43,224 nucleotides of DNA from a virus: the UHGV virus genome UHGV-0208947; one strand, written 5' to 3'. Positions 961-14,899 of the stretch are shown here, piece after piece. The position numbers and the translations under genes were made by a program. The notes beneath the pieces were generated by a model. The model was not told where the DNA came from. It did no database searches and saw only the letters and a program-made list of their open reading frames with translations. Position 1 is the stretch's first letter. The number at the start of each line of letters is the position of its first letter.

Positions 961-1417
961 TGATACCTCTGTAACCACAATTTTGTTTAATAATCTTAGC
1001 GTGCACATTTTCTGAACATACATGCAGCGCGTGAATGTGTTAAACAATAGTAGATGACTTTATCGGCAGTAATCAAAGGTTTTGAGCGAGCAACTCTGCG
1101 TCAGGAAAGGGCATTTTCCTGAATATGTTCACATCATATAAAGAAATACAGATAAAGCTATTATCTGCTTGTGGTGGTGAATGCACTGACCGGCTATAAG
1201 GAAAGGCCAAACAAGAACACGGTTGCAAAAACCGTGCCCTTAAATATTGAATCTCTATTCAGAACACTTTCTTAAATTGTCATTTGGCATATTACGAACA
1301 ATTCCGCGTAAAAACGTTCTGTTACGCTAAACCCTTATCCAGCAGGCTTTCAAGGATGTAAACCATAACACTCTGCGAACTAGTGTTACATTGCGTGTAG
1401 CTTTGAGTGGGCAACTT

Positions 1418-1458
1418 TGTGTACACTTTTGTGTACCCAAAAACAAAAATGTGTACCC
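1418..1458 (+). repeat. Three direct repeats TGTGTAC(A/C)C immediately upstream of the integrase start; candidate arm-type Int binding sites or int regulatory repeats
   Basis: TGTGTACAC at 1418-1426, TGTGTACCC at 1430-1438 and 1450-1458, same orientation. Confidence 0.4.
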
Positions 1459-1463
1459 ATTCA

Positions 1464-2657
1464 ATGATCACCGACACAAAGCTCAGGAAGGCGCTCGGCA
1501 AGAAAAGAGATGATATCGAGATTATTTCTGATTCGCACGGGCTCAACGCCAGAATCAGCCAGGCCGGAAAAATATCATTTTTCTATCGGTATCGCTGGGC
1601 CGGTAAAGCGGTAAAACTCAATGTTGGTGATTATCCTGCAATGAGTATCACCCAGGCAAGAGAGCGTCGCCAACAATTCAGAAACTGGTTAACTGAGGGA
1701 CTGGATCCGCGAGAGCAGGTGAAGCTGGATAAGCAGACCCGACAGGAAGCGATGTCCGTTGCCGAAGCGTTCAATTACTGGATTGAAAGGCACTGTATCG
1801 CTAACGGGCTAGTTAAAGTCGATTACTATCGCTAGGTGTTTGAGAAACATATCGCCGAACCGATGAAGAATGTCAAAGTCGATAACACAGCGAAAATGCA
1901 CTGGATCAACGTCTTCGATTCTATAGAAAGCAGGGTGATGGCTCATTACATGCTTTCGCTGTGCAAACGGGCGTTTAGGTTCTGCGTTAACAGAAGTGTG
2001 ATCGCCTCAAACCCACTCGAGGGATTACTGCCATCTGATGTCGGGCAAAAGCCTAAAAAGAGAACTCGCAGGATGGACGATGACGATCTGCGCAAAATCT
2101 ATCAGTGGTTGAAAAGCCATATGTCGATAGAGTCCGTTTTCCTGGTGAAATTTATTATGCTTACCGGATGCCGTACGGCTGAGATTCGACTTAGTGAGAG
2201 ATCATGGTTTCGATTGGATGATAATGAGTGGGTCGTGCCTGCGGGCAGTTATAAAACTCGGGTACATATTAGAAGGGGACTCTCAGACGCCGCCGTTAAC
2301 CTGGTCAGAAATCACCTCAAGAAAATAAACACCAATCACCTGGTGACTTCACAACGTAAAATTGATGGCGGGATCAAAGATTCGCCCGTTCATTCACCTG
2401 TGGCATCCAATTACGCCCGTTCTATTTGGAATGGAACAGGTATGGCAGAGTGGTCGCTTCATGATATGAGGCGGACGATAGCCACAAATCTCTCTGAGTT
2501 AGGTTGCCCGCCGCACGTAATTGAAAAGCTGCTCGGGCATCAGATGGTGGGGGTTATGGCGCATTACAACCTTCATGACTATATCGATGATCAGAAACAC
2601 TGGCTCCGCGTTTGGCAGAGCCATCTTGAAGAGATCATCGGAGAGCCCTTCAGTTAA
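1464..2657 (+). pseudogene. int: P4-type tyrosine integrase interrupted by an in-frame TAG (amber) codon at 1833-1835
   Basis: N-terminal [14 protein letters not shown]...[31 protein letters not shown] resembles the arm-binding domain of P4-like integrases; C-terminal part (ORF 1836-2657) has HxxR and a terminal MAHYNLHDY tyrosine motif. Track ORFs 1407-1835 and 1836-2657 are in the same frame, separated only by TAG. Confidence 0.6.
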
Positions 2658-2896
2658 TTTATCTTCTTTTTATCCTCCCACTCTTTGATTGACTCAGAGC
2701 GCCAGCGGTTAGGGTTGCCGGGCCAGTCAGGGGGTGGGAACGGGCATACGAAGCCCCGAGGCATTGTGTCTGCACTTTGCCATGACCAAAGGGTTTTGCG
2801 TGAAATTTTGTAGCGACTGGTCAGGTCTGACGTTACCAAAATATCATCCATAGCTCTCTCCAGTTGCCCGTTCGGGCCATTCAAAATCTTTTTCAA
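2654..2896 (-). CDS. AlpA-family small DNA-binding protein (putative excisionase or regulator)
   Basis: 80-aa ORF adjacent to int; ...[15 protein letters not shown]... resembles AlpA/Xis-type HTH; start codon uncertain. Confidence 0.5.
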
Positions 2897-3135
2897 CCAA
2901 CCTGCCCGGGCAGGGAGCGGAGACGGCGCATGCCGGTCATCGCTGTGGCCACGTAGCTCGCCTTTCGGTTCACCACCTCCACCCAGACTTTCACGCCTTC
3001 AACCTTCACCGTATAAGTCTCTTTCATCTTGCTTCGCCCATAGTCGCCATATGTTTGCAAGTGAGCTGCCAGCGCGATGTCGCATGCTTGGCGAGCTAAA
3101 GGTGATTGCTTACTTCCTCGATTGATCAGTCGCAT
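2893..3135 (-). CDS. Hypothetical prophage protein
   Basis: 80-aa ORF co-oriented and overlapping the neighbouring gene by 4 nt; no recognisable motif. Confidence 0.4.
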   Translation of the reverse strand: MRLINRGSKQSPLARQACDIALAAHLQTYGDYGRSKMKETYTVKVEGVKVWVEVVNRKASYVATAMTGMRRLRSLPGQVG

Positions 3136-3173
3136 ATAATCTCCTTGAGGGAGGGTTACCCCTCCCGGTCTCG

Positions 3174-4292
3174 TCAGGCCACGTATTCCGGTTTCATATC
3201 CGCCAGGGTGATGCTGAATTGATCGTGCAGTTCATCGCCTAAGTGACGCTTTGAAGATGCAAGCATGCGCTCGGCTTCAGCGAACCGTTCGGCTGCATGC
3301 GGCTCGTCGGGCTGGGGCAGGGATTTAATAGCCTCCTCAACCTTGTTGCGTGCATCCACTAGGTAATAACGCTTTACGGCTTTGTTTTTCAGCTCGGTGA
3401 ATAGTGCGGATCCCAGCGTAGCTTTCGCCGTTTCAATGTCGGCACGCAGCGATTTGGCGCTATCCACGTCCTGAGCAGATTCGATGCGTTCGCGGAAATC
3501 ATCGGCAAGAGAGTCGACATTTACCGACGATTCCTGTGCGCTTTGCGTGGTTGTGACGGTGTCACCTGAGATATCAGCCAGGCTAACGCGTTGCGGCGTT
3601 GGGTTGATCTCTTTTTCTGTGCGCTGTTCAATCTCATCAGGGGTGTACACACCAAGAACAACTGCAGGGCAATACAGGCGCGCCCAGTATTTGAGTGCCA
3701 GATAAGCGATCTGCTGTTTCGGGTTTGATACCCAAAGTGGAGAATTACGTGTGATTACGCTGGAGAGGAAAACAGGCTCTCCCCAGGTGATATCACTTTC
3801 ACCGCGAATAACGGCACCTACCCGTACCGACAGTCCTTGTTCATCAGCACTTTCCCAACCGCGTACCATTTCTTTCTTGTCGTACGTCCCGCCACCTTTC
3901 GCAGGCTTTTTAACGGTTATCTCGCGGCTGCTGGCACATTTCGACCAGTCGCCCTCGTACTCATAGTGAAAGCGGCCAACGATGGCGTTTGAGCTGGAGA
4001 TCACCGCATTAACCAGTTGCGCTTCGTATCCCAGGACACCGTTAACCAGGTGCGTCTTTTGCGCCACGGCGTAAGGGTTCATACCCCACTGCATCGCCTG
4101 CATGATGATGGCCATGCAGTCTGCCGGATTGCCGCGGAGGTGCTCAGGCACCGTTACGGCTGCCTGTGCCATCAACCCGGCGACAGACTGAAGCTGGGTT
4201 AAAGCCTGCACGTTGAAAATGGCATTGCTGGCTGAGATCGTGTTTGGAGTCTGCTGTTCAGCGGTTACGATATTCGTGTTTTCCATCATCAT
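3174..4292 (-). CDS. RecT-family single-strand annealing protein (candidate)
   Basis: 372-aa ORF immediately downstream of the RecE-like exonuclease; region ...VPEHLRGNPADCMAIIMQAMQWGMNPY...GVLGYEAQLVNAV... follows the RecT-like pattern as I recall it. Confidence 0.55.
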   Translation of the reverse strand: MMMENTNIVTAEQQTPNTISASNAIFNVQALTQLQSVAGLMAQAAVTVPEHLRGNPADCMAIIMQAMQWGMNPYAVAQKTHLVNGVLGYEAQLVNAVISSSNAIVGRFHYEYEGDWSKCASSREITVKKPAKGGGTYDKKEMVRGWESADEQGLSVRVGAVIRGESDITWGEPVFLSSVITRNSPLWVSNPKQQIAYLALKYWARLYCPAVVLGVYTPDEIEQRTEKEINPTPQRVSLADISGDTVTTTQSAQESSVNVDSLADDFRERIESAQDVDSAKSLRADIETAKATLGSALFTELKNKAVKRYYLVDARNKVEEAIKSLPQPDEPHAAERFAEAERMLASSKRHLGDELHDQFSITLADMKPEYVA

Positions 4293-4297
4293 TCCCC

Positions 4298-7207
4298 TTA
4301 TGCATGAGTACGCAGCGCTTCAAGGCGGCGCAGGTCGAAGTCGTTCAGTTCGTCGGTGTAGTCAGCAGTGATTGGCGCTGGCCATTCACCTGTGTCGAAT
4401 CCGGTTGCGATATTGCGCATCGCTTTGCGGTACTCGAGCATACCCAGCTCCAGTAGTTCAGCGGATGCCTCGATGATGGCGATCCAGTGGTAGTTCTCGT
4501 CTTTGTTGACGAAAATCCAGAAGAACTGATCCAGCGCTGCGGTTTCGCAGTACATAGCCGCGCTCAGGTGATAATCACGTTCAATAATTTCCCGGTGTAG
4601 CCTGGCGCGCAGGCTTTCCTGCTTAACATTCCACATGCTGATGGTTTTCAGGTCAGCACCGATACGCACGCCGTCTAGGTCGATCTCAAGGTCAGGGCGC
4701 ACACGAACTTCCAGTCCCGTCTCCTCGTCAAAGCCAAAGTAGCTCACCTCAACGGCGCGGCTCGGGTGGGTTAGCAGCATGCCTGCGGTCGGGTGCGAGA
4801 GCAGTGCTGACTGAATTGCCTGCGCGGTGGCAAGTTGCTGGTGGGTAACCAGCACTTTCCCTTCCGGGTTGTTGCGCCAAGCATCGAGCAGCTCGTCGGC
4901 GAACACTGCATCTGGTTTGACTGCCTTCACGGCCTGAATCAGATCGGCCTTCGTGCCAGAGACTTTCAGCGGTTGCAGCTTCTGAGCTTCCTGCGCGACC
5001 AGGTCAGGATTGATAATCGCAAGTTGTTCGAGTAGTGCGTCGCGGCTGCCGCTGGTTTTAATCTGCGCTGGCAGGGTGGCGTTGTACTCTTTGATGCACG
5101 CCTTCATTGCTGTTGCTGTCTTCTTCTGATCTGCATCGATACGTTGGAATTCAGCTGGCAGCGCCATATAGTTCTGCGCCGTTTCATCCAGGCTAGCGCC
5201 CAGCGGCACCAGCGCTGGCAGGGTGGCGTTGTATTCATCCAGCAAAGCTTTGATATCGTCTGCGCTCAGTTGCGCTGGCAGGCTGGCGTTGTACTCATCA
5301 ATAAACGCGCGGATCGTTGCCGTGGTGGTAAATGCACCTTCCGGAATTACGGGTTCAACGCTAAATTCTTCATCAAGCTGTTCTGGCTGCAACGCCAGCG
5401 CATGTACCAGGTTTCCCATGTCCAGCACTGAGGAGCGCTCTTTGACGATGGTTTTCTCAACGTGGCGCGCATTGAAGTACATCAGCGAAACGCGCGCATC
5501 TTTTACCTGGGTGGAACTGATGCCGTTGGCAGCGTGGTAAACCTCGTTCGGCAGACCTTCATAGCGCCCAGGCTCGAAGTAATCGGGGTAAAAAACAGCT
5601 TGTTCGTCAGATTGCGCCTCTGGCTCGACGTGTGCCAAAACTGGTTCAGTCTGGTTTACAGAATCGCTATTTTGAGCGACAGATTCCGTATTTTGGTTTA
5701 CATCGGCCTGCTGGCCGGGATGTGACTCTTCACCAGTTTCCAGACTGCTTTCGCCTGACTGCATTTCATTACCAACATTTTTTTCATCACTGACAGTTTC
5801 TTGAACCTGCACATTGCTGGTGGTTTCCGTAGCCTGTTTCGTGCCATGAGTTGCTGAGTTCTGCAGTAAAGCCGTAACATCGAATATTCCGTTGCCGACA
5901 TTTTTAACCAGTTCTTGTTCGGCTTTATGTGGTTGTGCTGTCGCTTCCTCTGCGCGGCGGCGTGCTTCTTCTTCACGTACGCGTTGCAGGTTCTCTTCGT
6001 GAGTGCAGAAGGGTTTGCGTGGAGACTCCTTACTTTCAGGTTGGGGAATTTCCTGTGTTGCGGGCTCAGCTTCATGCAATGGCAATAACTCAACAGCAGC
6101 ATTAAACGCAGCAGTCATGGTCCGGTTAACAAACTCCAGGTGAGCGACAGGAGTTAGATGAATATTTTCCGGCGCGATACGTATCAGGTTAAAAATAGCT
6201 GTGCGGTTAACGCCAAGAACGCCGGGTTGATTGCGCAGAATGCTGCTCCATGATTTCCACGGTTCTTCTTTTTTGGTCACGATTTCTTTAGCGCGACGAA
6301 GAATGCTGCCCGGGATCTCGAAGTGGTTGAAGTCCATAGGCAGAAGGGCACATGCAATCTCTAAATCGAGAGTGTCAAGGGTATGGTATGTATCAGGTCC
6401 ACGGTCAGTGACGTAACCGCCGTTGGCATTGGTTCCGGAATCAGTACGCTGAACACTACTGATGTGATTACCGGCAGCCCATTCACGCGCCAGGATGCCA
6501 CGGTCAATGTAATCAGTAGCCGCCCACATTCTGGTGAAACGGAGTACCAGCGCGAGTTCGTGACGCTTGTCCTGGCTGAACACTTTGCGAATGGCATCGG
6601 TGTAGCGCCACAGGTCTTTGGTGTCGTAACCCTTCACTTCCGGGCAGTTCTCAGCAGCTAACAGCAAGTTCTGGACGTAACTGTTATCAGTGTCCATCTC
6701 CAGCGCGCCGATAGCTTCGTACTCTTCGCGGGTTACGTGGTGGCGCAGTTCGTCGGCGGTGAACTGGGAAAGCAGTTGCTTACGAAACGGCATCTGCACT
6801 ACCGGGTAGAGGGTTGAGTCGTCGTCGTGTTCGTCCAGCGTGATGCCAGCGGTTTCTGGCAGCGTTGACTCAGTAGTTATGTGACTATCAACGGTCTGAG
6901 CCGTTTTCTCGTCAGAGTTTTCAGCTGTGACTTTTGGCAGCCAGGTGCGGTCATCGTTCTGCAGTTCGTAGCGTTCGCACCAGGTGTAATCCACTGCGCC
7001 TTCTTCCGGCAGGTCGTCATATACCGGGAAATCGGTGCGGATTGGTTTGGCATAATCTTTACCGCGGCCAGTTTCTTCAATTCCGGCTTCTTCCAGTGCC
7101 ACATCGAGTTGGAGATTGGCGCGCGCTACACTTTTCGCAGTGAACCAAATCACTGCATCTTTCTTGCCAGACTTCTGACTGGCTTTTATCAGATGGAAAA
7201 ATTCCAT
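4298..7207 (-). CDS. RecE-like exonuclease VIII (recombination exonuclease)
   Basis: Long ORF; start taken at the ATG at 7207-7205 (MEFFHLIK...) preceded by AAGAGGA with 6-nt spacing; the track start at 7312 is GTG. Acidic C-terminal domain and position upstream of the RecT-like gene fit a RecE/RecT pair; contains internal EYNA(S/T)LPA repeats. Confidence 0.6.
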   Translation of the reverse strand: MEFFHLIKASQKSGKKDAVIWFTAKSVARANLQLDVALEEAGIEETGRGKDYAKPIRTDFPVYDDLPEEGAVDYTWCERYELQNDDRTWLPKVTAENSDEKTAQTVDSHITTESTLPETAGITLDEHDDDSTLYPVVQMPFRKQLLSQFTADELRHHVTREEYEAIGALEMDTDNSYVQNLLLAAENCPEVKGYDTKDLWRYTDAIRKVFSQDKRHELALVLRFTRMWAATDYIDRGILAREWAAGNHISSVQRTDSGTNANGGYVTDRGPDTYHTLDTLDLEIACALLPMDFNHFEIPGSILRRAKEIVTKKEEPWKSWSSILRNQPGVLGVNRTAIFNLIRIAPENIHLTPVAHLEFVNRTMTAAFNAAVELLPLHEAEPATQEIPQPESKESPRKPFCTHEENLQRVREEEARRRAEEATAQPHKAEQELVKNVGNGIFDVTALLQNSATHGTKQATETTSNVQVQETVSDEKNVGNEMQSGESSLETGEESHPGQQADVNQNTESVAQNSDSVNQTEPVLAHVEPEAQSDEQAVFYPDYFEPGRYEGLPNEVYHAANGISSTQVKDARVSLMYFNARHVEKTIVKERSSVLDMGNLVHALALQPEQLDEEFSVEPVIPEGAFTTTATIRAFIDEYNASLPAQLSADDIKALLDEYNATLPALVPLGASLDETAQNYMALPAEFQRIDADQKKTATAMKACIKEYNATLPAQIKTSGSRDALLEQLAIINPDLVAQEAQKLQPLKVSGTKADLIQAVKAVKPDAVFADELLDAWRNNPEGKVLVTHQQLATAQAIQSALLSHPTAGMLLTHPSRAVEVSYFGFDEETGLEVRVRPDLEIDLDGVRIGADLKTISMWNVKQESLRARLHREIIERDYHLSAAMYCETAALDQFFWIFVNKDENYHWIAIIEASAELLELGMLEYRKAMRNIATGFDTGEWPAPITADYTDELNDFDLRRLEALRTHA

Positions 7208-7345
7208 GTGAGATCCTCTTTTTTGAGTGTTAGAATCCCCGGGCCAGAGATAGCGCCCATTGGATGTTTTTTGGTTTGGTATAAATTCCGGTGTAACTTT
7301 GGTCGGTGGCACCGGACGTGAATCCCGCCTTGCGCGGGTTTTACG

Positions 7346-8301: not shown

Positions 8302-9606
8302 TTATTGACGATTAAAGTAGTTAGAGTTTAGCTCTTTAGGGAAGTAGTGTTTACGATTTACCCAAACAAATCCATCAACTTTTGATATCACAGCGACATC
8401 AACAGGCCCACCGACAGTTTCATAATCATGTGATACTTTTCTTTTGAATGCAGTGATGTTCACTAATGATTCGGCCATATACGCAAGATCTGCCTTCCCA
8501 AGTGATTGCAACATCGATATCATTTTATTTGTATGGTTATTAACAATATAGCTTTCAAGTTTAGTATCGTGATCTTGTAAAAGTACGTTTTTGAGTTCCT
8601 CAATTTCACTGGAGAAGTGATTGGCTAGTACTCCATTGTTCATTGCAGGGAAAATATTGCTAGAAACATAATGATTAAGCCGATCAAAAACTTCCTCTGT
8701 AAGAGTTCTGTTAAAATTAATGATGTTAGGGTTGCACCCATCAATGAAAGTTACTACTTCATCTTCTTGAGCAAATGGTATAACAAACCCCATATTGGTT
8801 ACCTTATTATGGGATTTATCATCAATATTATGGATCATCAATTTGTTTTTAAAAATGCCGTAGATATGAAGAGTGCAAATGGAAGGGTAATATTCTTCCT
8901 CTCCATAACCTGTTATAACAATCCCTGAATATGTACGACTAGCATGGACTTTGAAAATTAAACAAGTGGAATATAATATGACTTTTTCCATAAGCTCTTG
9001 CTGTATATTTTCACAGTTATCAAGAACAATAATTGATGAAATGTATGGCGATATTAAATCTTGTATATATGCTAAAGCATCATTAAACTCTTCTGTATCA
9101 AACCCTTCGAAAAAGAGATTATTCCTTAAGATTCCTATCTCTAAATCAAAGGCTTGCTTAACTATGTTTTGAAAAATAACATTGTCGAGTTCAACGGCGG
9201 GGTTCATTGTTAAATAGTTTACTACATTATTATCATTAATGTATCTCATCAAACCTTTGAGGTTATCAACAACAAGGTTTATAACGCAAGCCTCTCTCAT
9301 TTCATTTGTTATAAGGTCTGAGTTACCATTGATGAATTTTACAAAGTCATTAACATATTCTTTAATGGTAGGGAAACTAGTTTTCCCCAATTGTTTTCTA
9401 TAGGATTTAATTATAAGTTCCCACGGTGCGCCACCCAGTGTCGCATTATTATAAATCATGATCCCCACGGGATGGTGTTTAGATAGTTCGAATAGTTTTT
9501 CCGCACTATTATTTATTTTTACTAATCTATTATGCTCTGTGGTGACTGCAGAGTCAGCAGCAAGGGCGATTCCAGTATTATTTATTACAACAATCTCAGC
9601 TGTCAT
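8302..9606 (-). CDS. AT-rich accessory protein with HslV/proteasome-beta-like (Ntn hydrolase, threonine peptidase) signatures; candidate defence or abortive-infection gene in the rex position
   Basis: Minus-strand ORF co-oriented with and directly downstream of the repressor gene. The internal ATG at 9606-9604 gives MTAEIVVINNTGIALAADSAVTTEHNRLVKIN..., closely paralleling HslV [35 protein letters not shown] (Thr after Met, Asp about 17, Lys about 30). The C-terminus ...YETVGGPVDVAVISKVDGFVWV resembles the GSGG / D-x-x-S-G-G region of the same fold. About 300 residues of Asn/Ile/Lys-rich sequence lie between. The track ORF extends to an ATG at 9705 (467 aa); 434 aa from 9606. Confidence 0.6.
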   Translation of the reverse strand: MTAEIVVINNTGIALAADSAVTTEHNRLVKINNSAEKLFELSKHHPVGIMIYNNATLGGAPWELIIKSYRKQLGKTSFPTIKEYVNDFVKFINGNSDLITNEMREACVINLVVDNLKGLMRYINDNNVVNYLTMNPAVELDNVIFQNIVKQAFDLEIGILRNNLFFEGFDTEEFNDALAYIQDLISPYISSIIVLDNCENIQQELMEKVILYSTCLIFKVHASRTYSGIVITGYGEEEYYPSICTLHIYGIFKNKLMIHNIDDKSHNKVTNMGFVIPFAQEDEVVTFIDGCNPNIINFNRTLTEEVFDRLNHYVSSNIFPAMNNGVLANHFSSEIEELKNVLLQDHDTKLESYIVNNHTNKMISMLQSLGKADLAYMAESLVNITAFKRKVSHDYETVGGPVDVAVISKVDGFVWVNRKHYFPKELNSNYFNRQ

Positions 9607-9747
9607 TGCAAAACATCCCGTGTAGTAGTGATAAATATTAATTAAATTGATAGTTTTTTTCAATCTAACATAAATGGCGGAATCACCCCCCAGTAAAGAC
9701 ATCATTGTCTCATGGGAACTAAAAATTCAGGACAAACCTAAAGCGAT

Positions 9748-10134
9748 TCAGTCCCCCTGCGAGCGAATCCGCCCCTTCATGTACTTCTCATACAGCTCAT
9801 CCAGTTCCTTAAGACGTATCGAAAAGATGCGGAGCATGTTCTGTTGCTCTTCTTCTGGCAGCTGGCGGTAGAGCTCAAGCAGGCGCTGTTCGTCCGGCTT
9901 AAGTCCGTCCTTCTCGCCGACATCCTCACCGAGTAACCAAGGCACAGACACGCCAGCTGCGTCAGCGACAGCGAGAGCTGATTTCTTGCTGATCACGCCT
10001 TTTTTAAACCAGCCGTTCACAGACTGCGGGGTTACCCCAGCAACCCTGGCCATATCGGATTTGGTCATACCGCGCCCGTTCAGCTCTGAAAGGCGTTCGA
10101 CAAGTATCGGATTAAGTACGGTTTTCTCTTTCAT
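9748..10134 (-). CDS. Prophage repressor, DicA/CI-like HTH (XRE family) protein
   Basis: 128 aa; HTH MTKSDMARVAGVTPQSVNGWFKKG; C-terminal LLELYRQLPEEEQQNML resembles DicA; divergent from the cro-like gene with operator repeats between. Confidence 0.8.
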   Translation of the reverse strand: MKEKTVLNPILVERLSELNGRGMTKSDMARVAGVTPQSVNGWFKKGVISKKSALAVADAAGVSVPWLLGEDVGEKDGLKPDEQRLLELYRQLPEEEQQNMLRIFSIRLKELDELYEKYMKGRIRSQGD

Positions 10135-11008: not shown

Positions 11009-11092
11009 CCGGTTCAAAAATGGCGAAAGCCGCGGTGCTCGAACACCAACGGCTTTCAGGTGCAAAAACAGTGCGTAATTGCGGAGAACAGT

Positions 11093-12004
11093 ATGTCAAA
11101 CACCGCTGAAATAATCAATTTCCCAAATAAAACCGAACAACCGGGAGGTCGTATGGCCGACCTGTCGAACGGGTATACCAAGGTCGCTAACGAGATCCAA
11201 CAGCTTAAGCCTCGCCTGAGACTGTCAGGCCGGGAATGGCAATGTTTTGAGGCGGTGATCTGGCTTACCTACGGCTGGAACAAGAAACAGGACCGCGTGA
11301 CAAATACGGTTATTGCCGAGCTTACGGGCCTGAGCGATACGCATGTATCGGACGCGCTTAAGTCTCTCGCAGAACGCAAAATCATCTTTTCACAGAAGCA
11401 GGGCATGATGAAAATCGTCGGTGTAAACACTGACCTTTCAGCATGGATTTTAGACAAACCGGAAACGGGAAGAAAATTCCCGAAAACGGGAAAATCCTTC
11501 CCGAAATCAGGAATAACCTTCCCGAAAACGGTAGACACCCAATACAAGAACAAGAACAGTATTAAAAGATCTTCGTCCGAGAATTCTGACGAATCCTCTG
11601 ACGCACGTCTGAAGAAATTTTTATCAACTCATCCTGAAGCTGCGGTCTACACACCATCCGGTGCGAAGTGGGGCTCTGCTGAAGACCTCGAGACAGCTAA
11701 GTGGATTTCCTCCAGGGTGAAGCTGATTAACCCAACCTGCAAAGCCCCGGACATGACCTCCTGGTCTAACACTGTTCGCCTGATGCGCCAGATAGACAAC
11801 CGGTCGCACCAGGACATCTGCGCGCTGTATGACTGGGCTAGCAAACACCACTTCTGGCAGACCAACATCCTGAGTCCCGAAAGCCTGCGTAAGCAGTGGG
11901 ACAAGCTGACAATGCAGCGTAACGCCGGAGGTGAGCAGCGCGGCGCTGTCAAGCCAGATCTGGACTTCAACAACACTGACTGGGCCTATGGGGTGATCCG
12001 ATGA
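11093..12004 (+). CDS. Replication initiator, lambda O-like
   Basis: MSNTAEIINFPNK... parallels lambda O MTNTAKILNF...; ...LTYGWNKKQDRVT... parallels O ...KTYGWNKPMDRIT...; iterons inside the gene; ATGA overlap with the P-like gene. Confidence 0.8.
   Translation: MSNTAEIINFPNKTEQPGGRMADLSNGYTKVANEIQQLKPRLRLSGREWQCFEAVIWLTYGWNKKQDRVTNTVIAELTGLSDTHVSDALKSLAERKIIFSQKQGMMKIVGVNTDLSAWILDKPETGRKFPKTGKSFPKSGITFPKTVDTQYKNKNSIKRSSSENSDESSDARLKKFLSTHPEAAVYTPSGAKWGSAEDLETAKWISSRVKLINPTCKAPDMTSWSNTVRLMRQIDNRSHQDICALYDWASKHHFWQTNILSPESLRKQWDKLTMQRNAGGEQRGAVKPDLDFNNTDWAYGVIR
11457..11531. repeat. Iteron array (candidate replication origin) inside the O-like gene
   Basis: TTCCCGAAAACGGG at 11477, TTCCCGAAATCAGG at 11498, TTCCCGAAAACGG at 11519 (21-bp periodicity) plus a degenerate copy at 11457; AT-richer stretch follows. 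Confidence 0.55.
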
Positions 12005-12690
12005 AATCTCTTGCAGAGCAGATGCGTAACCACGACCGCGAGCAGATGAGCCGCATGGCCCATAACCTGCCAGAGCAGTACCAGGAGTGCGCGCCGGTCG
12101 AGCAGGTGGCGCAGGTATTCAACAAGCTGTTCAACGAGCTGCGCGCCGCGTTCCCGGCCAGCATGGCGAACTTCCGCACCCAGGAAGACCTGAACGAATT
12201 CCGCCGTCAGTGGCTGCTGGCGTTTCAGGAGAACGGGATCCACACCATGGCTCAGGTCGATGCCGGCATGCGCATTGCCCGCCGCCAGGAGCGCCCATTC
12301 CTGCCGTCGCCGGGCCAGTTCGTCGCCTGGTGCAAGCAGAGCGGCGGCGCGCTGGGCGTCAACGTTGACCAGGTGATCGCCGAATACTGGGACTGGCGTA
12401 ACCGCTCGTTCGAATTCATCTCCAGCGAGCAATTTCCATGGTCGCAGCCGGTCATGTACCACATTTGCGTAGAATTGCGCCACCGCAGCACCGAGCGCCA
12501 GTTAACGCATGGTGAACTGGCACGCGAGGCAGGCGATCTGCTGGACATGTGGGAAAGGCGCGTCACCGAGGGTAAGCCAGTGCCGCCGGTACGCCGGGCT
12601 ATTGCCGCACCAGCTGCCGAGCAAGGGCCGACGCCGATCCAGCTGCTGCTGGCCAAGTACAACCGCAACAAGTCGAACGGGATGGTGTGA
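12001..12690 (+). CDS. Replication protein P-like (helicase loader)
   Basis: MKSLAEQMRNHDREQMSRMAHNLPEQY...RPFLPSPGQFVAWC... closely parallels lambda P (MKNIAAQMVNFDREQMRRIANNMPEQY...RPFLPSPGQFVAWC). Confidence 0.85.
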   Translation: MKSLAEQMRNHDREQMSRMAHNLPEQYQECAPVEQVAQVFNKLFNELRAAFPASMANFRTQEDLNEFRRQWLLAFQENGIHTMAQVDAGMRIARRQERPFLPSPGQFVAWCKQSGGALGVNVDQVIAEYWDWRNRSFEFISSEQFPWSQPVMYHICVELRHRSTERQLTHGELAREAGDLLDMWERRVTEGKPVPPVRRAIAAPAAEQGPTPIQLLLAKYNRNKSNGMV

Positions 12691-12749
12691 CATGAACATA
12701 ACAATCCGTGAGCAGGTGCTGGCAGCCCTGCGCAACAACCCAGGGTTGA

Positions 12750-12932
12750 ACAACGCCAAACTGGCAGGGCTTCCCGGAGTGGTACATCATCGATCAGGAC
12801 TATCGGGGGCAGAAGTACGCGAAGGACAAGCAGGTTGCGCGTTGTGGCAACGCAGTTCCGCCGCCATTCGCCGAGGCACTGGTGAGGGCTAATTTACCGG
12901 AGCTTTGTCAGCAGAAAGAGATCGCAGCTTAA
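12750..12932 (+). pseudogene. 3' remnant of a DNA cytosine-5 methyltransferase gene (start-less C-terminal fragment)
   Basis: Open frame with no start encodes ...QGFPEWYIIDQDYRGQKYAKDKQVARCGNAVPPPFAEALVRANLPELCQQKEIAA; GFP(D/E) and GNAVPPP match C5-MTase C-terminal motifs; bounded upstream by TGA at 12747-12749. Confidence 0.5.
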
Positions 12933-13031
12933 TGTCCGAGTTTCAGAACATGGTGTAACAAATCCTGCTACTTCAATGACGTAGATTCAAACCTGATATA
13001 ATTAGGCTCTTCACAACACGAGGAGCCTAAA

Positions 13032-13268
13032 ATGCACCATTACATGATCCCTATCAACGGAACTGTTCACCTGATCAAGACTGACTCTCTAATCCCTGAA
13101 GGGACTGAGTATAGCTTTGAAGGAGAAAGTCTAATCTGCGCTCATGCCACTTTTAAATCTGGGACGTATGGCTTCCTGATACCAAAGGGAAATCAGTTGA
13201 ATAGAGAGCATGCGTTCTGGCATGTAAGTGGAATTCACCCTAATCCCCTGGGAATGGATAAATCGTAA
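13032..13268 (+). CDS. Hypothetical 78-aa moron protein
   Basis: ATG at 13032 with AGGAG 7 nt upstream and TATAAT at 12997-13002; AT-richer than flanks; lies between two methyltransferase 3' remnants. Confidence 0.5.
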   Translation: MHHYMIPINGTVHLIKTDSLIPEGTEYSFEGESLICAHATFKSGTYGFLIPKGNQLNREHAFWHVSGIHPNPLGMDKS

Positions 13269-13387
13269 TCCATAATATGCATGCCATCGTCCTGAACATA
13301 CGGTGGCATGCATCCGGCACTACAACAGAAACGTTAAAGTGCAAACAATACAATTCGAGCAATATTCAACCTGTCACAGATGGCGAA

Positions 13388-13520
13388 TACCACCGCCATT
13401 TCGTGCATTCTGTGGTTTCTATTACCCATTGCGTTAATGCTGTCCAATCATCAGCTCGCTGAGGCGCTGGTTAGGGCTAACCTACAGGAGCTTTGTCAGC
13501 AGAAACAAATAGCGGCGTAA
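13388..13520 (+). pseudogene. Second, frameshifted remnant of a C5-methyltransferase 3' end
   Basis: ...ITHCVNAV... then, in a shifted frame, ...LAEALVRANLQELCQQKQIAA stop; shares the exact 18-mer GAGCTTTGTCAGCAGAAA (13488-13505) with the first remnant (12900-12917). Confidence 0.35.
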
Positions 13521-13538
13521 TAAAACATCGCTAATTCA

Positions 13539-13567
13539 ACCCGCTACGGCGGGTTTTCTTTTTTTAC
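13539..13567 (+). terminator. Rho-independent terminator
   Basis: ACCCGC-TACG-GCGGGT hairpin followed by TTTTCTTTTTTT. Confidence 0.6.
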
Positions 13568-13627
13568 TACTGACAGAAAATTAACAATTTGTGCTCTTAA
13601 AGCGTTGATCATTTCCGCGCATAGGTA

Positions 13628-13647
13628 TACTGTATAAAAACACAGTA
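13628..13647. promoter_or_regulatory. LexA (SOS) box upstream of the DinI-like gene
   Basis: TACTGTATAAAAACACAGTA: CTGT-N8-ACAG with AT-rich centre, matching the E. coli LexA consensus; ends 18 nt before the dinI-like ATG. Confidence 0.6.
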
Positions 13648-13665
13648 AATGCAATGGGGGCCATT

Positions 13666-13899
13666 ATGAAAGTTGAATTAACCATTGATCGCATGAAAGA
13701 ACTTCCTAAAGGCGCAGTACCAGCACTGGAGAAAGAACTGCTTAAGCGCCTGAATGATCACTATGACAATTGCAGGCTCACAATCCGCCGTGCCGGGGCC
13801 GATGGGTTAAGTGTTTTTGGTGGTGACAAGGACGATAAAAAGAAAATTGAATCAATCCTCCAGGATACCTGGGAAAGCGCTGACGACTGGTTTTATTAG
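13666..13899 (+). CDS. dinI: DinI-family protein (DNA-damage-inducible protein I homologue)
   Basis: MKVELTIDRMKELPKGAVPALEKELLKRL...DKKKIESILQDTWESADDWFY parallels E. coli DinI including the C-terminal ...ILQETWESADDWF. Confidence 0.8.
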   Translation: MKVELTIDRMKELPKGAVPALEKELLKRLNDHYDNCRLTIRRAGADGLSVFGGDKDDKKKIESILQDTWESADDWFY

Positions 13900-14016
13900 A
13901 ATTGCGCTTAAGGCTGGCGCGCATTTTTCAGAATACCGCAATTTGCGTAACCCTCTGATGCTGCTGCCGACAATCTTTAATCGCGTCTGTTAGTCGCTCG
14001 AAGGGAGAACATAAAT

Positions 14017-14265
14017 GTGAGTGATTCAGCTTTGCAAACGTCAGAAGACAACTGGTATGACATTGTAAGAAGGTCTGACGGCTGCGTGGTGTTTAGCTTT
14101 CCTTCATCGGGCAGGCATCTAATTTATCGCGTCAATGGCATGGTTTCTATGCGGCCTTTGCTGGATGATGAAGAGGTCTTTACTCCTAATGGTTTTATGC
14201 AGTTTATTCACCGTCTCGGCTACCGGGTAACCCCACCTTCTGATAATATGAAATCAACGGTCTGA
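14017..14265 (+). CDS. Hypothetical protein
   Basis: 82-aa ORF with GTG start, AGGGAG upstream; no recognisable motif. Confidence 0.4.
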   Translation: MSDSALQTSEDNWYDIVRRSDGCVVFSFPSSGRHLIYRVNGMVSMRPLLDDEEVFTPNGFMQFIHRLGYRVTPPSDNMKSTV

Positions 14266-14299: not shown

Positions 14300-14899
14300 A
14301 TGGCGCACGAACTACAACTCATCAAGCATTCCTCAGGAATCCTGATCCCCGCTACGCCGGAGACCAGTGATTTACTGCAATCAAAAATCAAACTCGGCTC
14401 CGTACTGGTGGCTGAGTTCCGGCAGGTACGCAACCCGGCCTTTCACCGTCGTTTCTTCGCGTTACTCAATCTCGGTTTCGAATACTGGGAACCCACCGGC
14501 GGGGCAATCTCCTCCAACGAACGCAAGCTGGTAACCGGCTATGCCAAGTTCCTTGCCTCATTCGCGGGAAGTGAAGCAGCACTCCTGGATGCTGCTGAGC
14601 AATATCTGGAGCGCATCGCCGATAAGCGTACTGGTAGCATCTGCGCCTGTAAGTCATTCGATGCATATCGTGCATGGGTCACTATTGAGTCCGGCCATTA
14701 CGACGCCATTCAGCTGCCTGACGGCACCCTCCGCAAACATCCCCGCAGTATCTCATTCGCAAATATGGATGAAACTGAGTTCCAGCAGCTGTACAAAGCC
14801 GCGCTCGATGTTCTGTGGCGATGGATACTCTCCCGATCATTTCGCAGTTGTGAAGAGGCAGAAAACGCCGCCGCCCAGCTGATGAGCTTTGCGGGGTGA
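14300..14899 (+). CDS. Hypothetical nin-region protein
   Basis: 199-aa ORF with ATG and GGAGAGA upstream; typical lambdoid nin-region position. Confidence 0.55.
   Translation: MAHELQLIKHSSGILIPATPETSDLLQSKIKLGSVLVAEFRQVRNPAFHRRFFALLNLGFEYWEPTGGAISSNERKLVTGYAKFLASFAGSEAALLDAAEQYLERIADKRTGSICACKSFDAYRAWVTIESGHYDAIQLPDGTLRKHPRSISFANMDETEFQQLYKAALDVLWRWILSRSFRSCEEAENAAAQLMSFAG

What the first reader, a model, noticed from the sequence alone, without database searches (positions are those of the whole stretch)
12690..13570. Two diverged methyltransferase 3' remnants flanking a promoter-equipped small moron
A start-less frame at 12750-12932 encodes a C5-cytosine methyltransferase C-terminus (GFPEW...RCGNAVPPPFAEAL...), and a second frameshifted copy of the same gene end is at about 13388-13520; the two share the exact 18-mer GAGCTTTGTCAGCAGAAA and are roughly 75-80 percent identical across about 70 bp. 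Between them lies a 78-aa ORF (13032-13268) with its own TATAAT and AGGAG, followed by an imperfect inverted repeat (ATGCATGCCATCG ... CGGTGGCATGCAT, 13278-13316). This looks like the scar of recombination between related phages at a methyltransferase locus that captured a small cargo gene; such loci often carry defence or anti-defence cargo.
Basis: partly seen in the sequence, partly recalled or inferred. Interest (0 to 1): 0.5.

Follow-up and report, generated by a model that had tools for sequence, protein, structure and literature searches.

The report
Decayed phage methylase locus with moron
This is an ordinary patchwork junction in an E. coli lambda-like prophage: a large DNA cytosine methylase gene has been almost wholly deleted, but the small independently expressed gene of unknown function that normally sits just behind it has been kept.

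Summary
The window is an mEp237-like lambdoid prophage of E. coli.

- **Remnant 1 (12764-12932):** the last 56 codons of a 650-716-aa phage C5-cytosine methyltransferase. A 718-bp deletion between two 9-bp repeats (GCAGGGCTT) joined it out of frame to the first 26 codons of a ren-like winged-helix gene.
- **Remnant 2 (about 13421-13520):** the decayed, frameshifted tail of a different methylase allele. It follows the small gene even in relatives that still have an intact methylase, so it is an older scar.
- **The 78-aa ORF:** a real gene (phrog_30079, unknown function). It has at least four allele classes at about 40% identity. dN/dS within a class is about 0.25-0.4.
- **Its usual position:** three of the four classes lie directly downstream of the big methylase. 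Three of the four share a nearly identical extended -10 promoter and a hairpin that sequesters the Shine-Dalgarno sequence.
- **Moron loss:** in other E. coli genomes, recombination across the shared 18-mer has deleted the moron.

No defence, anti-defence, Pfam or fold match was found. This is a new member of a known kind: a moron at a mosaic junction. Interest is low to moderate.

The parts
12693..12893 (+). 66-codon hybrid ORF. It consists of the first 26 codons of a ren-like winged-helix gene (ATG overlapping the stop of replication gene P) running out of frame into methylase DNA. Probably a non-functional fusion.
   Evidence: Identical to mEp237 gp44 up to 12772, then jumps 718 bp. RefSeq annotates it as hypothetical protein WP_001299077.1. 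Full-length gp44 matches HTH_24 and phrog_142 'Ren-like'.
12764..12772 (+). Deletion junction: the 9-bp microhomology GCAGGGCTT. In mEp237 it is present once in the ren-like gene and once in the methylase fragment, 718 bp apart.
   Evidence: BLAST pieces overlap by exactly these 9 bases. Junction sequences were printed.
12764..12932 (+). Remnant 1: the last 56 codons plus stop of a large phage C5-cytosine methyltransferase (motif IX/X region, ...QGFPEWYIID...RCGNAVPPPFAEALVRANLPELCQQKEIAA*).
   Evidence: 53/55 identical to residues 658-712 of the intact 712-aa enzyme of L013. Pfam PF00145. About 89% nt identity to intact genes.
12868..12933 (+). Direct repeat copy 1 (methylase tail). It contains the shared 18-mer at 12900-12917.
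12976..13002 (+). Putative sigma-70 promoter of the moron: ATGACG, a 15-nt spacer, then the extended -10 TGATATAAT (12994-13002). The 27-nt core is conserved in three allele classes of the downstream gene.
   Evidence: Sequence. Annotated as a promoter in mEp237. Invariant apart from two sites in 11 loci. Same core in front of the 40%-identical alleles of L040 and L041. Not experimentally shown.
13002..13030 (+). 5'-UTR hairpin UUAGGCUCUUC...GAGGAGCCUAA, which pairs the Shine-Dalgarno AGGAG (13021-13025) with an anti-SD located 2-10 nt after the -10 element.
   Evidence: -16.4 kcal/mol, z = -6.3. Equivalent SD-pairing hairpins in the L041 (-8.9) and L040 (-11.0) alleles, none in L039. A transcript starting at about 13008 folds at only -5.5.
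13032..13268 (+). 78-aa moron gene (mEp237 gp47 homologue; phrog_30079, unknown function). Predicted small soluble protein with five beta strands and a C-terminal helix. Invariant residues across the seven sequences of alignment A4: M1 Y4 P7 L14 K16 P22 G24 G31 C36 H38 Y46 G47 L49 G53 P70 N71 P72 L73.
   Evidence: AF2 pLDDT 80.5. dN/dS 0.25-0.4 within allele classes.
13277..13313 (+). Stem-loop directly after the stop codon (14-nt arms, 9-nt loop) with no U tract. Probably an RNA 3' stabiliser or weak pause site rather than a terminator.
   Evidence: Arm changes in L013 give G-U or A-U pairs on the + strand only. The stem is partly deleted in L031.
13421..13520 (+). Remnant 2: the decayed tail (last ~32 codons plus stop) of a second, different C5-methyltransferase allele. 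The window has a +1 frameshift (extra A near 13452-13453). The nucleotide-level repeat is 13456-13521, with the 18-mer at 13488-13505.
   Evidence: 92-97% identical to the methylase tails that precede dinI in other E. coli prophages. Relatives carry independent lesions: a -1 frameshift in L032 and an in-frame TGA in L013.
13538..13565 (+). Intrinsic terminator (7-bp GC-rich stem plus U run). It ends the moron transcript and separates it from the LexA-controlled dinI.
   Evidence: -12.8 kcal/mol, z = -4.8.
13628..13899 (+). Context: LexA box TACTGTATAAAAACACAGTA (13628-13647) and the dinI gene (13666-13899). In Klebsiella phage 5 LV-2017 the dinI homologue directly follows the intact methylase.
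   Evidence: Sequence. Pfam DinI E=4e-26. L007 annotation.

Best explanation
The region is the eroded remains of a 'large C5-methyltransferase plus small companion gene' module. It lies at the junction between the replication genes and the nin region of an mEp237-like lambdoid prophage of E. coli.

Shown:
1. The ancestral layout, still present in relatives, is P, ren-like gene, other genes, a 650-716-aa C5-methylase, promoter, 78-aa gene, hairpin, the tail of a second methylase allele (remnant 2), terminator, LexA box and dinI.
2. Remnant 2 is an old illegitimate-recombination scar. It already accompanies the small gene in genomes with an intact methylase, and it is decaying neutrally.
3. In this lineage the methylase was removed. 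A 718-bp deletion between two 9-bp repeats left its last 56 codons fused out of frame to the 5' end of the ren-like gene (remnant 1).
4. The two methylase tails are direct repeats. A crossover inside their shared 18-mer has deleted the moron in other E. coli prophages.
5. The 78-aa ORF is a genuine protein-coding gene. It belongs to a very small, Enterobacteriaceae-prophage-restricted family with at least four divergent allele classes.

Inferred:
- The gene is transcribed from its own extended -10 promoter, probably also in the lysogen, and the transcript ends at the terminator at 13538-13565.
- The anti-SD arm lies between the -10 element and the likely start site. Read-through early transcripts from upstream would therefore have the ribosome-binding site locked in a hairpin, while the moron's own transcript would not.

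Functional guess (low confidence, about 0.2): a small soluble binding protein acting in a conflict connected with cytosine methylation, for example countering methylation-dependent restriction, or another phage-host or phage-phage interaction. It does not need the methylase in cis, because it is kept after the methylase is lost.
For: **Deletion and junction.** mEp237 matches the window at 99.7-100% in two pieces offset by 718 bp. The pieces overlap by 9 bp.

**Degradation series.**
- Intact methylase plus moron plus remnant 2 plus dinI: L027/L038, L029, L030.
- Intact methylase plus moron plus remnant 2, with no dinI downstream: L013/L014/L036.
- Intact methylase with other alleles: L039, L041, L050, L055, L069.
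- Truncated methylase: at least 11 different left breakpoints, all leaving only the last 28-123 codons.

**Remnant 2 comes from another allele.** It is 83% identical to the adjacent tail but 92-97% identical to the tails upstream of dinI in KL53, AR_0119 and ECCWS199. It carries independent frameshifts and a nonsense codon in different relatives.

**Collapsed derivative.** AR_0119 (L003) has the same ren::methylase junction. Its single hybrid tail switches from remnant-1 to remnant-2 variants inside the 18-mer. At least four complete E. coli genomes are of this type. About 30 are window-type and one is mEp237-type.

**The gene is real.**
- phrog_30079, E=7e-49.
- Homologues at 39-43% identity with 18 invariant residues.
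- dN/dS 0.25 (15 synonymous, 16 non-synonymous changes) and 0.36 within allele classes.
- AF2 pLDDT 80.5.

**Cassette exchange.** dS of the ORF among window-type loci is 0.02-0.13. dS of the neighbouring methylase in the same genome pairs is 0.46-1.4.

**Promoter and hairpin.**

**Base composition.** GC drops from about 0.60 to about 0.43 at 12900.

**Moron definition.** PMC2629481, citing Juhala et al. 2000.
Against: - No transcription or translation data exist. The promoter is a consensus match with a poor -35 and a 15-nt spacer, and the generic scan missed it.
- The ORF changes among the closest relatives are few and include many non-synonymous ones (window vs L013, dN/dS about 1).
- The order of events (mEp237-type then window-type, or L027-type directly to window-type) cannot be resolved.
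- The collapsed type could also have arisen by an inter-phage crossover in the methylase tail rather than by intramolecular deletion.
- The link between the small protein's function and methylation rests only on synteny. One allele class (L040/L057) sits near xis/int with no methylase.
- The SD-hairpin logic depends on an unmapped transcription start.
- All loci were retrieved by searching with the small gene or its promoter. 'The gene is retained when the methylase is lost' is therefore partly an ascertainment effect.
Confidence: 0.85

Rival explanations
1. A single recombination between two related phages within their methylase genes captured a small cargo gene. The two methylase 3' ends are the two sides of that one event.
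For: Two diverged tails in direct orientation flank the gene. Remnant 2 does come from a different allele.
Against: Remnant 1 is continuous with an intact methylase in relatives that already carry the gene and remnant 2. Its truncation is a separate 718-bp deletion. The gene follows the methylase with no second tail in the H6-type and L039 alleles.
Confidence: 0.1
2. Local duplication. Insertion of the promoter-gene cassette into the 3' end of one methylase gene duplicated the tail, like a long target duplication. The two copies then diverged in place.
For: The repeats are direct and flank the insert. The 18-mer is identical in both.
Against: The copies differ by 17%, while the cassette between them differs by only 0-6% among loci. 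Remnant 2 is closer (92-97%) to tails in unrelated prophage contexts than to its neighbour. The part of remnant 2 upstream of 13454 is far more diverged than any in-place copy would be.
Confidence: 0.07
3. The stretch 13380-13520 is not junk. It encodes a 46-aa hydrophobic peptide (MANTTAISCILWFLLPIALML...) overprinted on the methylase remnant.
For: The frame is open in the window and begins with ATG. Window vs L013 shows 6 synonymous changes against 1 non-synonymous codon in that frame.
Against: There is no Shine-Dalgarno sequence. The ATG is lost in L035 and deleted in L009. L032 has a -1 frameshift inside the frame. L031 and L035 carry mostly non-synonymous changes. The C-terminus differs between loci because of the +1 indel.
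Confidence: 0.04
4. The 78-aa protein is a dedicated subunit or regulator of the methylase. Here, without its partner, it is a functionless leftover awaiting deletion.
For: Conserved adjacency to the methylase in three of four allele classes. Derivatives that have lost the gene exist.
Against: At least 11 independent methylase truncations keep the gene and promoter intact. The ORF is 100% conserved in about 30 E. coli genomes that lack the methylase. One allele class lives away from any methylase. The gene has its own promoter.
Confidence: 0.1
5. Sequencing or assembly artefact: one contiguous methylase gene miscalled.
For: None.
Against: The arrangement is identical in about 30 independent complete genomes and many IMG/VR contigs. 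Only 169 nt of a roughly 2.1-kb gene are present.
Confidence: 0.01

Closest known systems
Enterobacteria phage mEp237 (NC_019704 / JQ182730), genes gp44-gp48
   Same: 99.7-100% identical DNA. It has the same promoter (annotated there), the same 78-aa gene (gp47, 'hypothetical protein'), the same remnant 2, terminator and dinI.
   Different: mEp237 still has the whole ren-like gene, a 65-aa gene and a 134-aa C-terminal methylase fragment. The window lacks 718 bp of this. Remnant 2 is not annotated in mEp237.
Morons of lambdoid phages (Juhala et al. 2000; definition quoted in PMC2629481)
   Same: A small gene with its own promoter-like and terminator elements. Its base composition is lower than that of the upstream operon. 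It is present in some and absent from other otherwise colinear phages, and it lies inside the early-right operon.
   Different: It shows a conserved linkage to one particular neighbour (the large C5-methylase) across alleles that are only about 40% identical. This is unusual for a randomly inserted moron. Expression from the prophage is not shown.
Orphan phage C5-cytosine methyltransferases (Pfam PF00145; e.g. the 715-aa 'putative methylase' of Klebsiella phage 5 LV-2017, which is directly followed by dinI)
   Same: Remnants 1 and 2 are the motif IX/X tails of this family. Their position just upstream of dinI is the same.
   Different: Only 56 and about 32 codons remain here. Catalytic motifs I-VIII and the target-recognition region are gone, so no enzyme can be made.
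Gene-boundary mosaic junctions of lambdoid phages (modular exchange, nin region)
   Same: Novel joints fall at or near gene ends. For example, relatives diverge exactly at the stop codon of remnant 2. Different cargo sits upstream of the same methylase tail in KL53, ECCWS199 and AR_0119.
   Different: Here one joint can be assigned to a microhomology-mediated deletion (9 bp). Another can be assigned to a homologous crossover in an 18-bp identity.

Membership tests
Moron (independently expressed insert in a phage operon) | Present in some and absent from other otherwise colinear relatives | tested here: met
   Absent in AR_0119-type prophages with the same flanks. Klebsiella phage 5 LV-2017 has methylase then dinI with nothing between.
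Moron (independently expressed insert in a phage operon) | Own promoter | tested here: inconclusive
   Extended -10 TGATATAAT with a weak -35. The core is conserved across three allele classes. The generic scan gave no call. No transcript data.
Moron (independently expressed insert in a phage operon) | Own terminator | tested here: met
   Intrinsic terminator at 13538-13565 downstream of the gene and remnant 2. The H6-type allele has a terminator right after the ORF.
Moron (independently expressed insert in a phage operon) | Base composition different from neighbours | tested here: inconclusive
   GC is 0.43-0.44 against 0.59-0.63 upstream. Downstream genes (dinI and others) are also about 0.45.
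Moron (independently expressed insert in a phage operon) | Expressed from the repressed prophage | not testable with these tools
   Needs RNA-seq or 5'-RACE of a lysogen.
C5-cytosine DNA methyltransferase (PF00145), functional enzyme | Full set of motifs: I (FxGxG AdoMet site), IV (PC catalytic Cys), VI, VIII, target-recognition domain, IX, X | tested here: not met
   Only the motif IX/X tail is present. It matches profile positions 286-320 of 324 and residues 658-712 of 712. Intact relatives have motif I (IVDNFAGGGGASTG) at the N-terminus. The window holds pseudogene remnants only.
C5-cytosine DNA methyltransferase (PF00145), homology of the remnants | Significant similarity to family members | tested here: met
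   Remnant 1, E=8e-37. Remnant 2 (unframeshifted relatives), E=1e-11, against the intact 712-aa enzyme.
phrog_30079 (phage protein family, unknown function) | Full-length match to the family HMM | tested here: met
   E=6.9e-49 over residues 1-78 of 78. Distant alleles score 1.8e-29 and 2.5e-19.
Known anti-phage defence proteins (PADLOC-DB v2) | Match to any defence-system HMM | tested here: not met
   No hit for the 78-aa protein or its two distant homologues at E<=0.01.
Any solved or predicted fold with known function | Significant structural similarity | tested here: not met

The most novel reading that the evidence does not exclude
The 78-aa family (phrog_30079) may be a dedicated, fast-diversifying companion of the large prophage C5-methyltransferases. 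One possibility is an inhibitor of methylation-dependent (type IV, McrBC/McrA/Mrr-like) restriction, or another conflict protein. The supporting observations are:
- It is expressed from a conserved extended -10 promoter.
- Its anti-SD hairpin would silence translation on read-through early transcripts.
- The allele classes are only about 40% identical, although they sit behind a nearly identical promoter and next to 70-90% identical methylase DNA.
- Methylase truncation always stops 28-123 codons before the gene.

Together these features could reflect selection on this small module.
Probability: 0.15. Interest if true: 0.6.

Novelty: new member of a known kind. Interest (0 to 1): 0.28.

Why it matters
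As it stands, this locus is a clean, fully traceable example of how lambdoid prophage genomes erode and reshuffle. One junction is explained by a 9-bp microhomology deletion. One is explained by an 18-bp homologous crossover. One is an older illegitimate joint. There is also a graded series of relatives.

It flags a very rare, unannotated small gene. PGAP does not call it in window-type E. coli genomes. The gene is consistently linked to big phage cytosine methylases and has an unusually conserved promoter and 5' UTR.

If that gene proves to act on methylation-dependent restriction or on other phages, it would add a new small effector family. If not, the locus is ordinary mosaic debris.

Tried and rejected
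- **Small hydrophobic ORF at 13380-13520.** I considered it because of a 6:1 synonymous pattern against L013. I rejected it after more relatives showed start loss, frameshifts and mostly non-synonymous change.
- **Operator-like palindrome CTACTTCAATGACGTAG over the -35.** The left half is not conserved in L040/L057 and the arm spacing differs, so it was dropped.
- **Rfam scan of 12500-14100.** It gave only a sub-threshold chance hit (anti-hemB, 17.8 bits against 49.5) on the terminator.
- **Long repetitive proteins** found by the exhaustive HMMER search (P0006-P0010). Their Pfam matches are unrelated families (for example Hsp20, clostripain, dockerin), so I treated these hits as spurious.
- **GTDB species-representative genomes.** No copy of the gene was found.
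- **GenBank phage collection.** The gene occurs only in mEp237.
- **Literature.** A search for mEp237 gave nothing about gp47.
- **Fold searches.** These gave no informative match, and AFDB50 was unavailable.
- **Single-sequence AF2 model.** It was poor (pLDDT 62). The five-sequence alignment raised it to 80.5.
Full report
**Setting.** The window is a lambdoid (Rac/mEp237-like) prophage of E. coli.
- Early genes: integrase (1836-2657), RecT and RecE (3174-7312, minus strand), an HTH repressor (9748-10134) and a YdaT-like gene.
- Replication and later genes: O (11060-12004), P (12001-12690), the region in question, a LexA-boxed dinI (13628-13899), NinB/DUF1367 (14300-14899), RusA and Q.
- The stretch 12600-13660 is 99.8-100% identical in about 30 complete E. 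coli chromosomes.
- It is 99.7-100% identical, in two pieces, to phage mEp237.

**Checking the observation.**
- The frame at 12750-12932 is 53/55 identical to the last 55 residues of an intact 712-aa C5-methyltransferase (E=8e-37).
- Pfam PF00145 matches the tail. The score is E=0.0033 on the 60 aa alone and 3.9e-7 on mEp237's longer fragment.
- The two methylase tails form a 66-nt direct repeat (12868-12933 and 13456-13521) at 83% identity.
- The exact 18-mer occurs only at 12900-12917 and 13488-13505. None was expected in shuffles.
- The 78-aa ORF (13032-13268) is preceded by TGATATAAT (an extended -10) and by AGGAG 6 nt before the ATG.
- It is followed by a 14-nt-arm stem-loop, -21.8 kcal/mol.
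- A canonical intrinsic terminator lies at 13538-13565.

**Origin of remnant 1.**
- mEp237 carries, after P, a 114-aa ren-like winged-helix gene, a 65-aa gene and a 134-aa C-terminal methylase fragment. The annotated promoter and the 78-aa gene gp47 follow.
- The window matches mEp237 up to 12772 and again from 12764, with a 718-bp offset. The 9 overlapping bases, GCAGGGCTT, occur at both deletion endpoints in mEp237. This is a microhomology-mediated deletion.
- The deletion fuses the first 26 codons of the ren-like gene out of frame to the last 56 codons of the methylase. The result is the 66-codon hybrid ORF that RefSeq calls a hypothetical protein.

**Normal position of the small gene.**
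- The protein has almost no relatives. Only 2 clusters were found in 5.8 billion proteins with a single query, and 7 with a profile. It has no Pfam or PADLOC hit, and it belongs to phrog_30079, function unknown.
- Genomic look-ups and IMG/VR scans gave a graded series.
  - Intact 650-716-aa methylase directly upstream, followed by the same moron, remnant 2, terminator and dinI: L027/L038 (same ren-like backbone, moron 100% identical), L029 and L030.
  - Same, but followed by other cargo: L013/L014/L036.
  - Only a methylase tail of variable length: mEp237 123 codons, L034 about 92, L009 81, L031/L032 66, window-type 56, L033 43, L035 none.
- The exhaustive HMMER search added two distant homologues at 39-40% identity. 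A search for the promoter motif and a megablast with the methylase revealed a fourth class, the H6-type.
- In L039 (40%-identical allele) and in E. coli H6 (41%), the gene again lies 78-100 nt downstream of an intact large C5-methylase.
- The H6-type also shows intact (L050, L055, L069) and truncated (81, 71, 61 and 28 codons) methylase versions.
- Only the L040/L057 class lies elsewhere, near xis/int.
- The small gene was therefore not captured between two remnants. It is a long-standing downstream neighbour of this methylase family.

**Remnant 2.**
- It is present after the gene in every window-type relative, including those with an intact methylase. It therefore predates the loss of the methylase.
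- In relatives lacking the window's extra A (near 13452), the stretch translates as ITHCVNAVQSSLAEALVRANLQELCQQKQIAA*. This is colinear with methylase residues 681-712 (E=1e-11).
- It is closer (92-97%) to the methylase tails that precede dinI in unrelated E. coli prophage contexts (KL53, AR_0119, ECCWS199). Each of those tails has a different left breakpoint and different upstream cargo. It is only 83% identical to its own neighbour.
- It carries independent lesions in different loci: +1 in the window, L027, L031, L032 and L035; -1 in L032; an in-frame TGA in L013.
- It is thus a neutrally decaying scar of an older illegitimate joint with a second methylase allele.
- Several relatives diverge from the window exactly at its stop codon. 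This is a typical gene-boundary mosaic junction.

**The repeats are recombinogenic.**
- E. coli AR_0119 (L003) has the same ren::methylase junction but a single hybrid tail. The tail carries remnant-1 variants up to the 18-mer and remnant-2 variants after it, and the moron is gone.
- At least four complete genomes are of this collapsed type.
- The prophage encodes RecE/RecT. These could promote such short-homology events. This link is an inference.

**Is the ORF a gene, and how is it expressed?**
- Across classes, 18 residues are invariant.
- Within classes, dN/dS is 0.25 (L041 vs L070, 15 synonymous and 16 non-synonymous changes) and 0.36 (L040 vs L057). Among window-type loci the counts are small and the ratios are mostly 0.2-0.6.
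- AF2 with five sequences gives pLDDT 80.5. The model has five beta strands plus a C-terminal helix. No fold match was informative.
- The ORF's synonymous divergence among window-type loci (0.02-0.13) is 10-70 times lower than that of the adjacent methylase in the same genome pairs (0.46-1.4). The cassette has therefore been exchanged recently between diverged phages.
- Conversely, between allele classes the methylase tail is 70-88% identical and the intergenic and promoter stretch is 82-85% identical. The 27-nt promoter core is identical apart from two sites. The ORF drops to 42-57% nucleotide identity.
- The 5' UTR forms a hairpin that pairs the Shine-Dalgarno sequence with an anti-SD starting 2-3 nt after the -10 element (-16.4 kcal/mol, z = -6.3). 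SD-pairing hairpins also occur in the H6 and L040 alleles, but not in L039.
- A start about 7 nt after the -10 element would remove most of the anti-SD arm (-5.5 kcal/mol). I infer that the moron's own transcript is translatable, while read-through early transcripts are not. This is untested.

**What it is.** The locus is a moron at a decayed methyltransferase locus. The membership features for 'moron' are met for presence/absence and for the terminator. They are suggestive for the promoter and for composition, and untestable for prophage expression. The methylase remnants are homologous to PF00145 enzymes but fail the test for a functional enzyme, because motifs I-VIII are absent.

**Function.**
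- My best guess is a small binding protein involved in a conflict related to cytosine methylation or to other phages (about 0.2).
- It evidently does not need the methylase in cis.
- Repeated methylase loss in E. coli would fit the known toxicity of foreign C5-methylation in Mcr+ hosts. That is established knowledge, not tested here.

**An unexplained point.** All of the at least 11 independent truncations leave only the last 28-123 codons. There are no intermediate or 5' fragments. Part of the 'gene retained, methylase lost' pattern is ascertainment bias, because the loci were found with the small gene or its promoter.

**Verdict.** The structure is essentially already deposited and annotated in mEp237, and it belongs to a well-known kind of phage genome feature. 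The small gene family and its linkage to large phage methylases are a modest new lead.

Noticed in passing
window 13032-13268: In window-type E. coli genomes (e.g. NZ_CP020048), RefSeq/PGAP annotates no CDS between the 66-aa hybrid ORF and dinI. The 78-aa gene is therefore unannotated there. It is annotated in mEp237 (gp47), and the H6 allele is annotated as WP_016247098.1.
   Followed up: partly
window 13628-13899: A perfect LexA box, TACTGTATAAAAACACAGTA, lies upstream of a prophage dinI gene (Pfam DinI E=4e-26). In L039 a similar LexA box directly precedes the homologue of window ORF 14017-14265 (phrog_340), and no dinI is present.
   Followed up: partly
window 8302-9705 (- strand): A 467-aa ORF sits next to the HTH repressor gene (9748-10134), in the position where prophages often carry exclusion or defence genes. 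It has no Pfam hit at E<=1e-5 and no PADLOC hit.
   Followed up: partly
loci L009-L072 (methylase left breakpoints): All of the at least 11 independent truncations of the large methylase keep only its last 28-123 codons. No intermediate or 5' fragments were seen. This is not expected for random breakpoints in a 2.1-kb gene.
   Followed up: partly
L035 4488-5220: In this relative, two further small ORFs lie between the terminator that follows remnant 2 and dinI. One is a 55-aa protein with a lipoprotein/signal-like N-terminus, MKKILVVLLVSLFSLTATA. The site is a repeated landing place for small cargo.
   Followed up: no
L005 (E. coli ECCWS199) 1209-3445: The same slot between the ren-like gene and the methylase tail plus dinI holds five hypothetical genes and an annotated tRNA-Ile on the opposite strand.
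   Followed up: no
L013 2042-4901 and L039 3076-5923: A conserved trio lies upstream of the small gene: a dATP/dGTP pyrophosphohydrolase-like gene (PF04447), an 85-86-aa gene overlapping the methylase start, and the large C5-methylase. L039 additionally carries two N6/N4 methylases.
   Followed up: no
window 3174-7312 (- strand): The prophage encodes RecT and a 1004-aa RecE/exonuclease VIII-like protein. This recombination system could mediate the short-homology events seen at the methylase tails.
   Followed up: no
window 13380-13520: A 46-aa ORF with a hydrophobic core is read in an alternative frame of remnant 2. It is open here, but it is not conserved as an ORF in relatives.
   Followed up: yes
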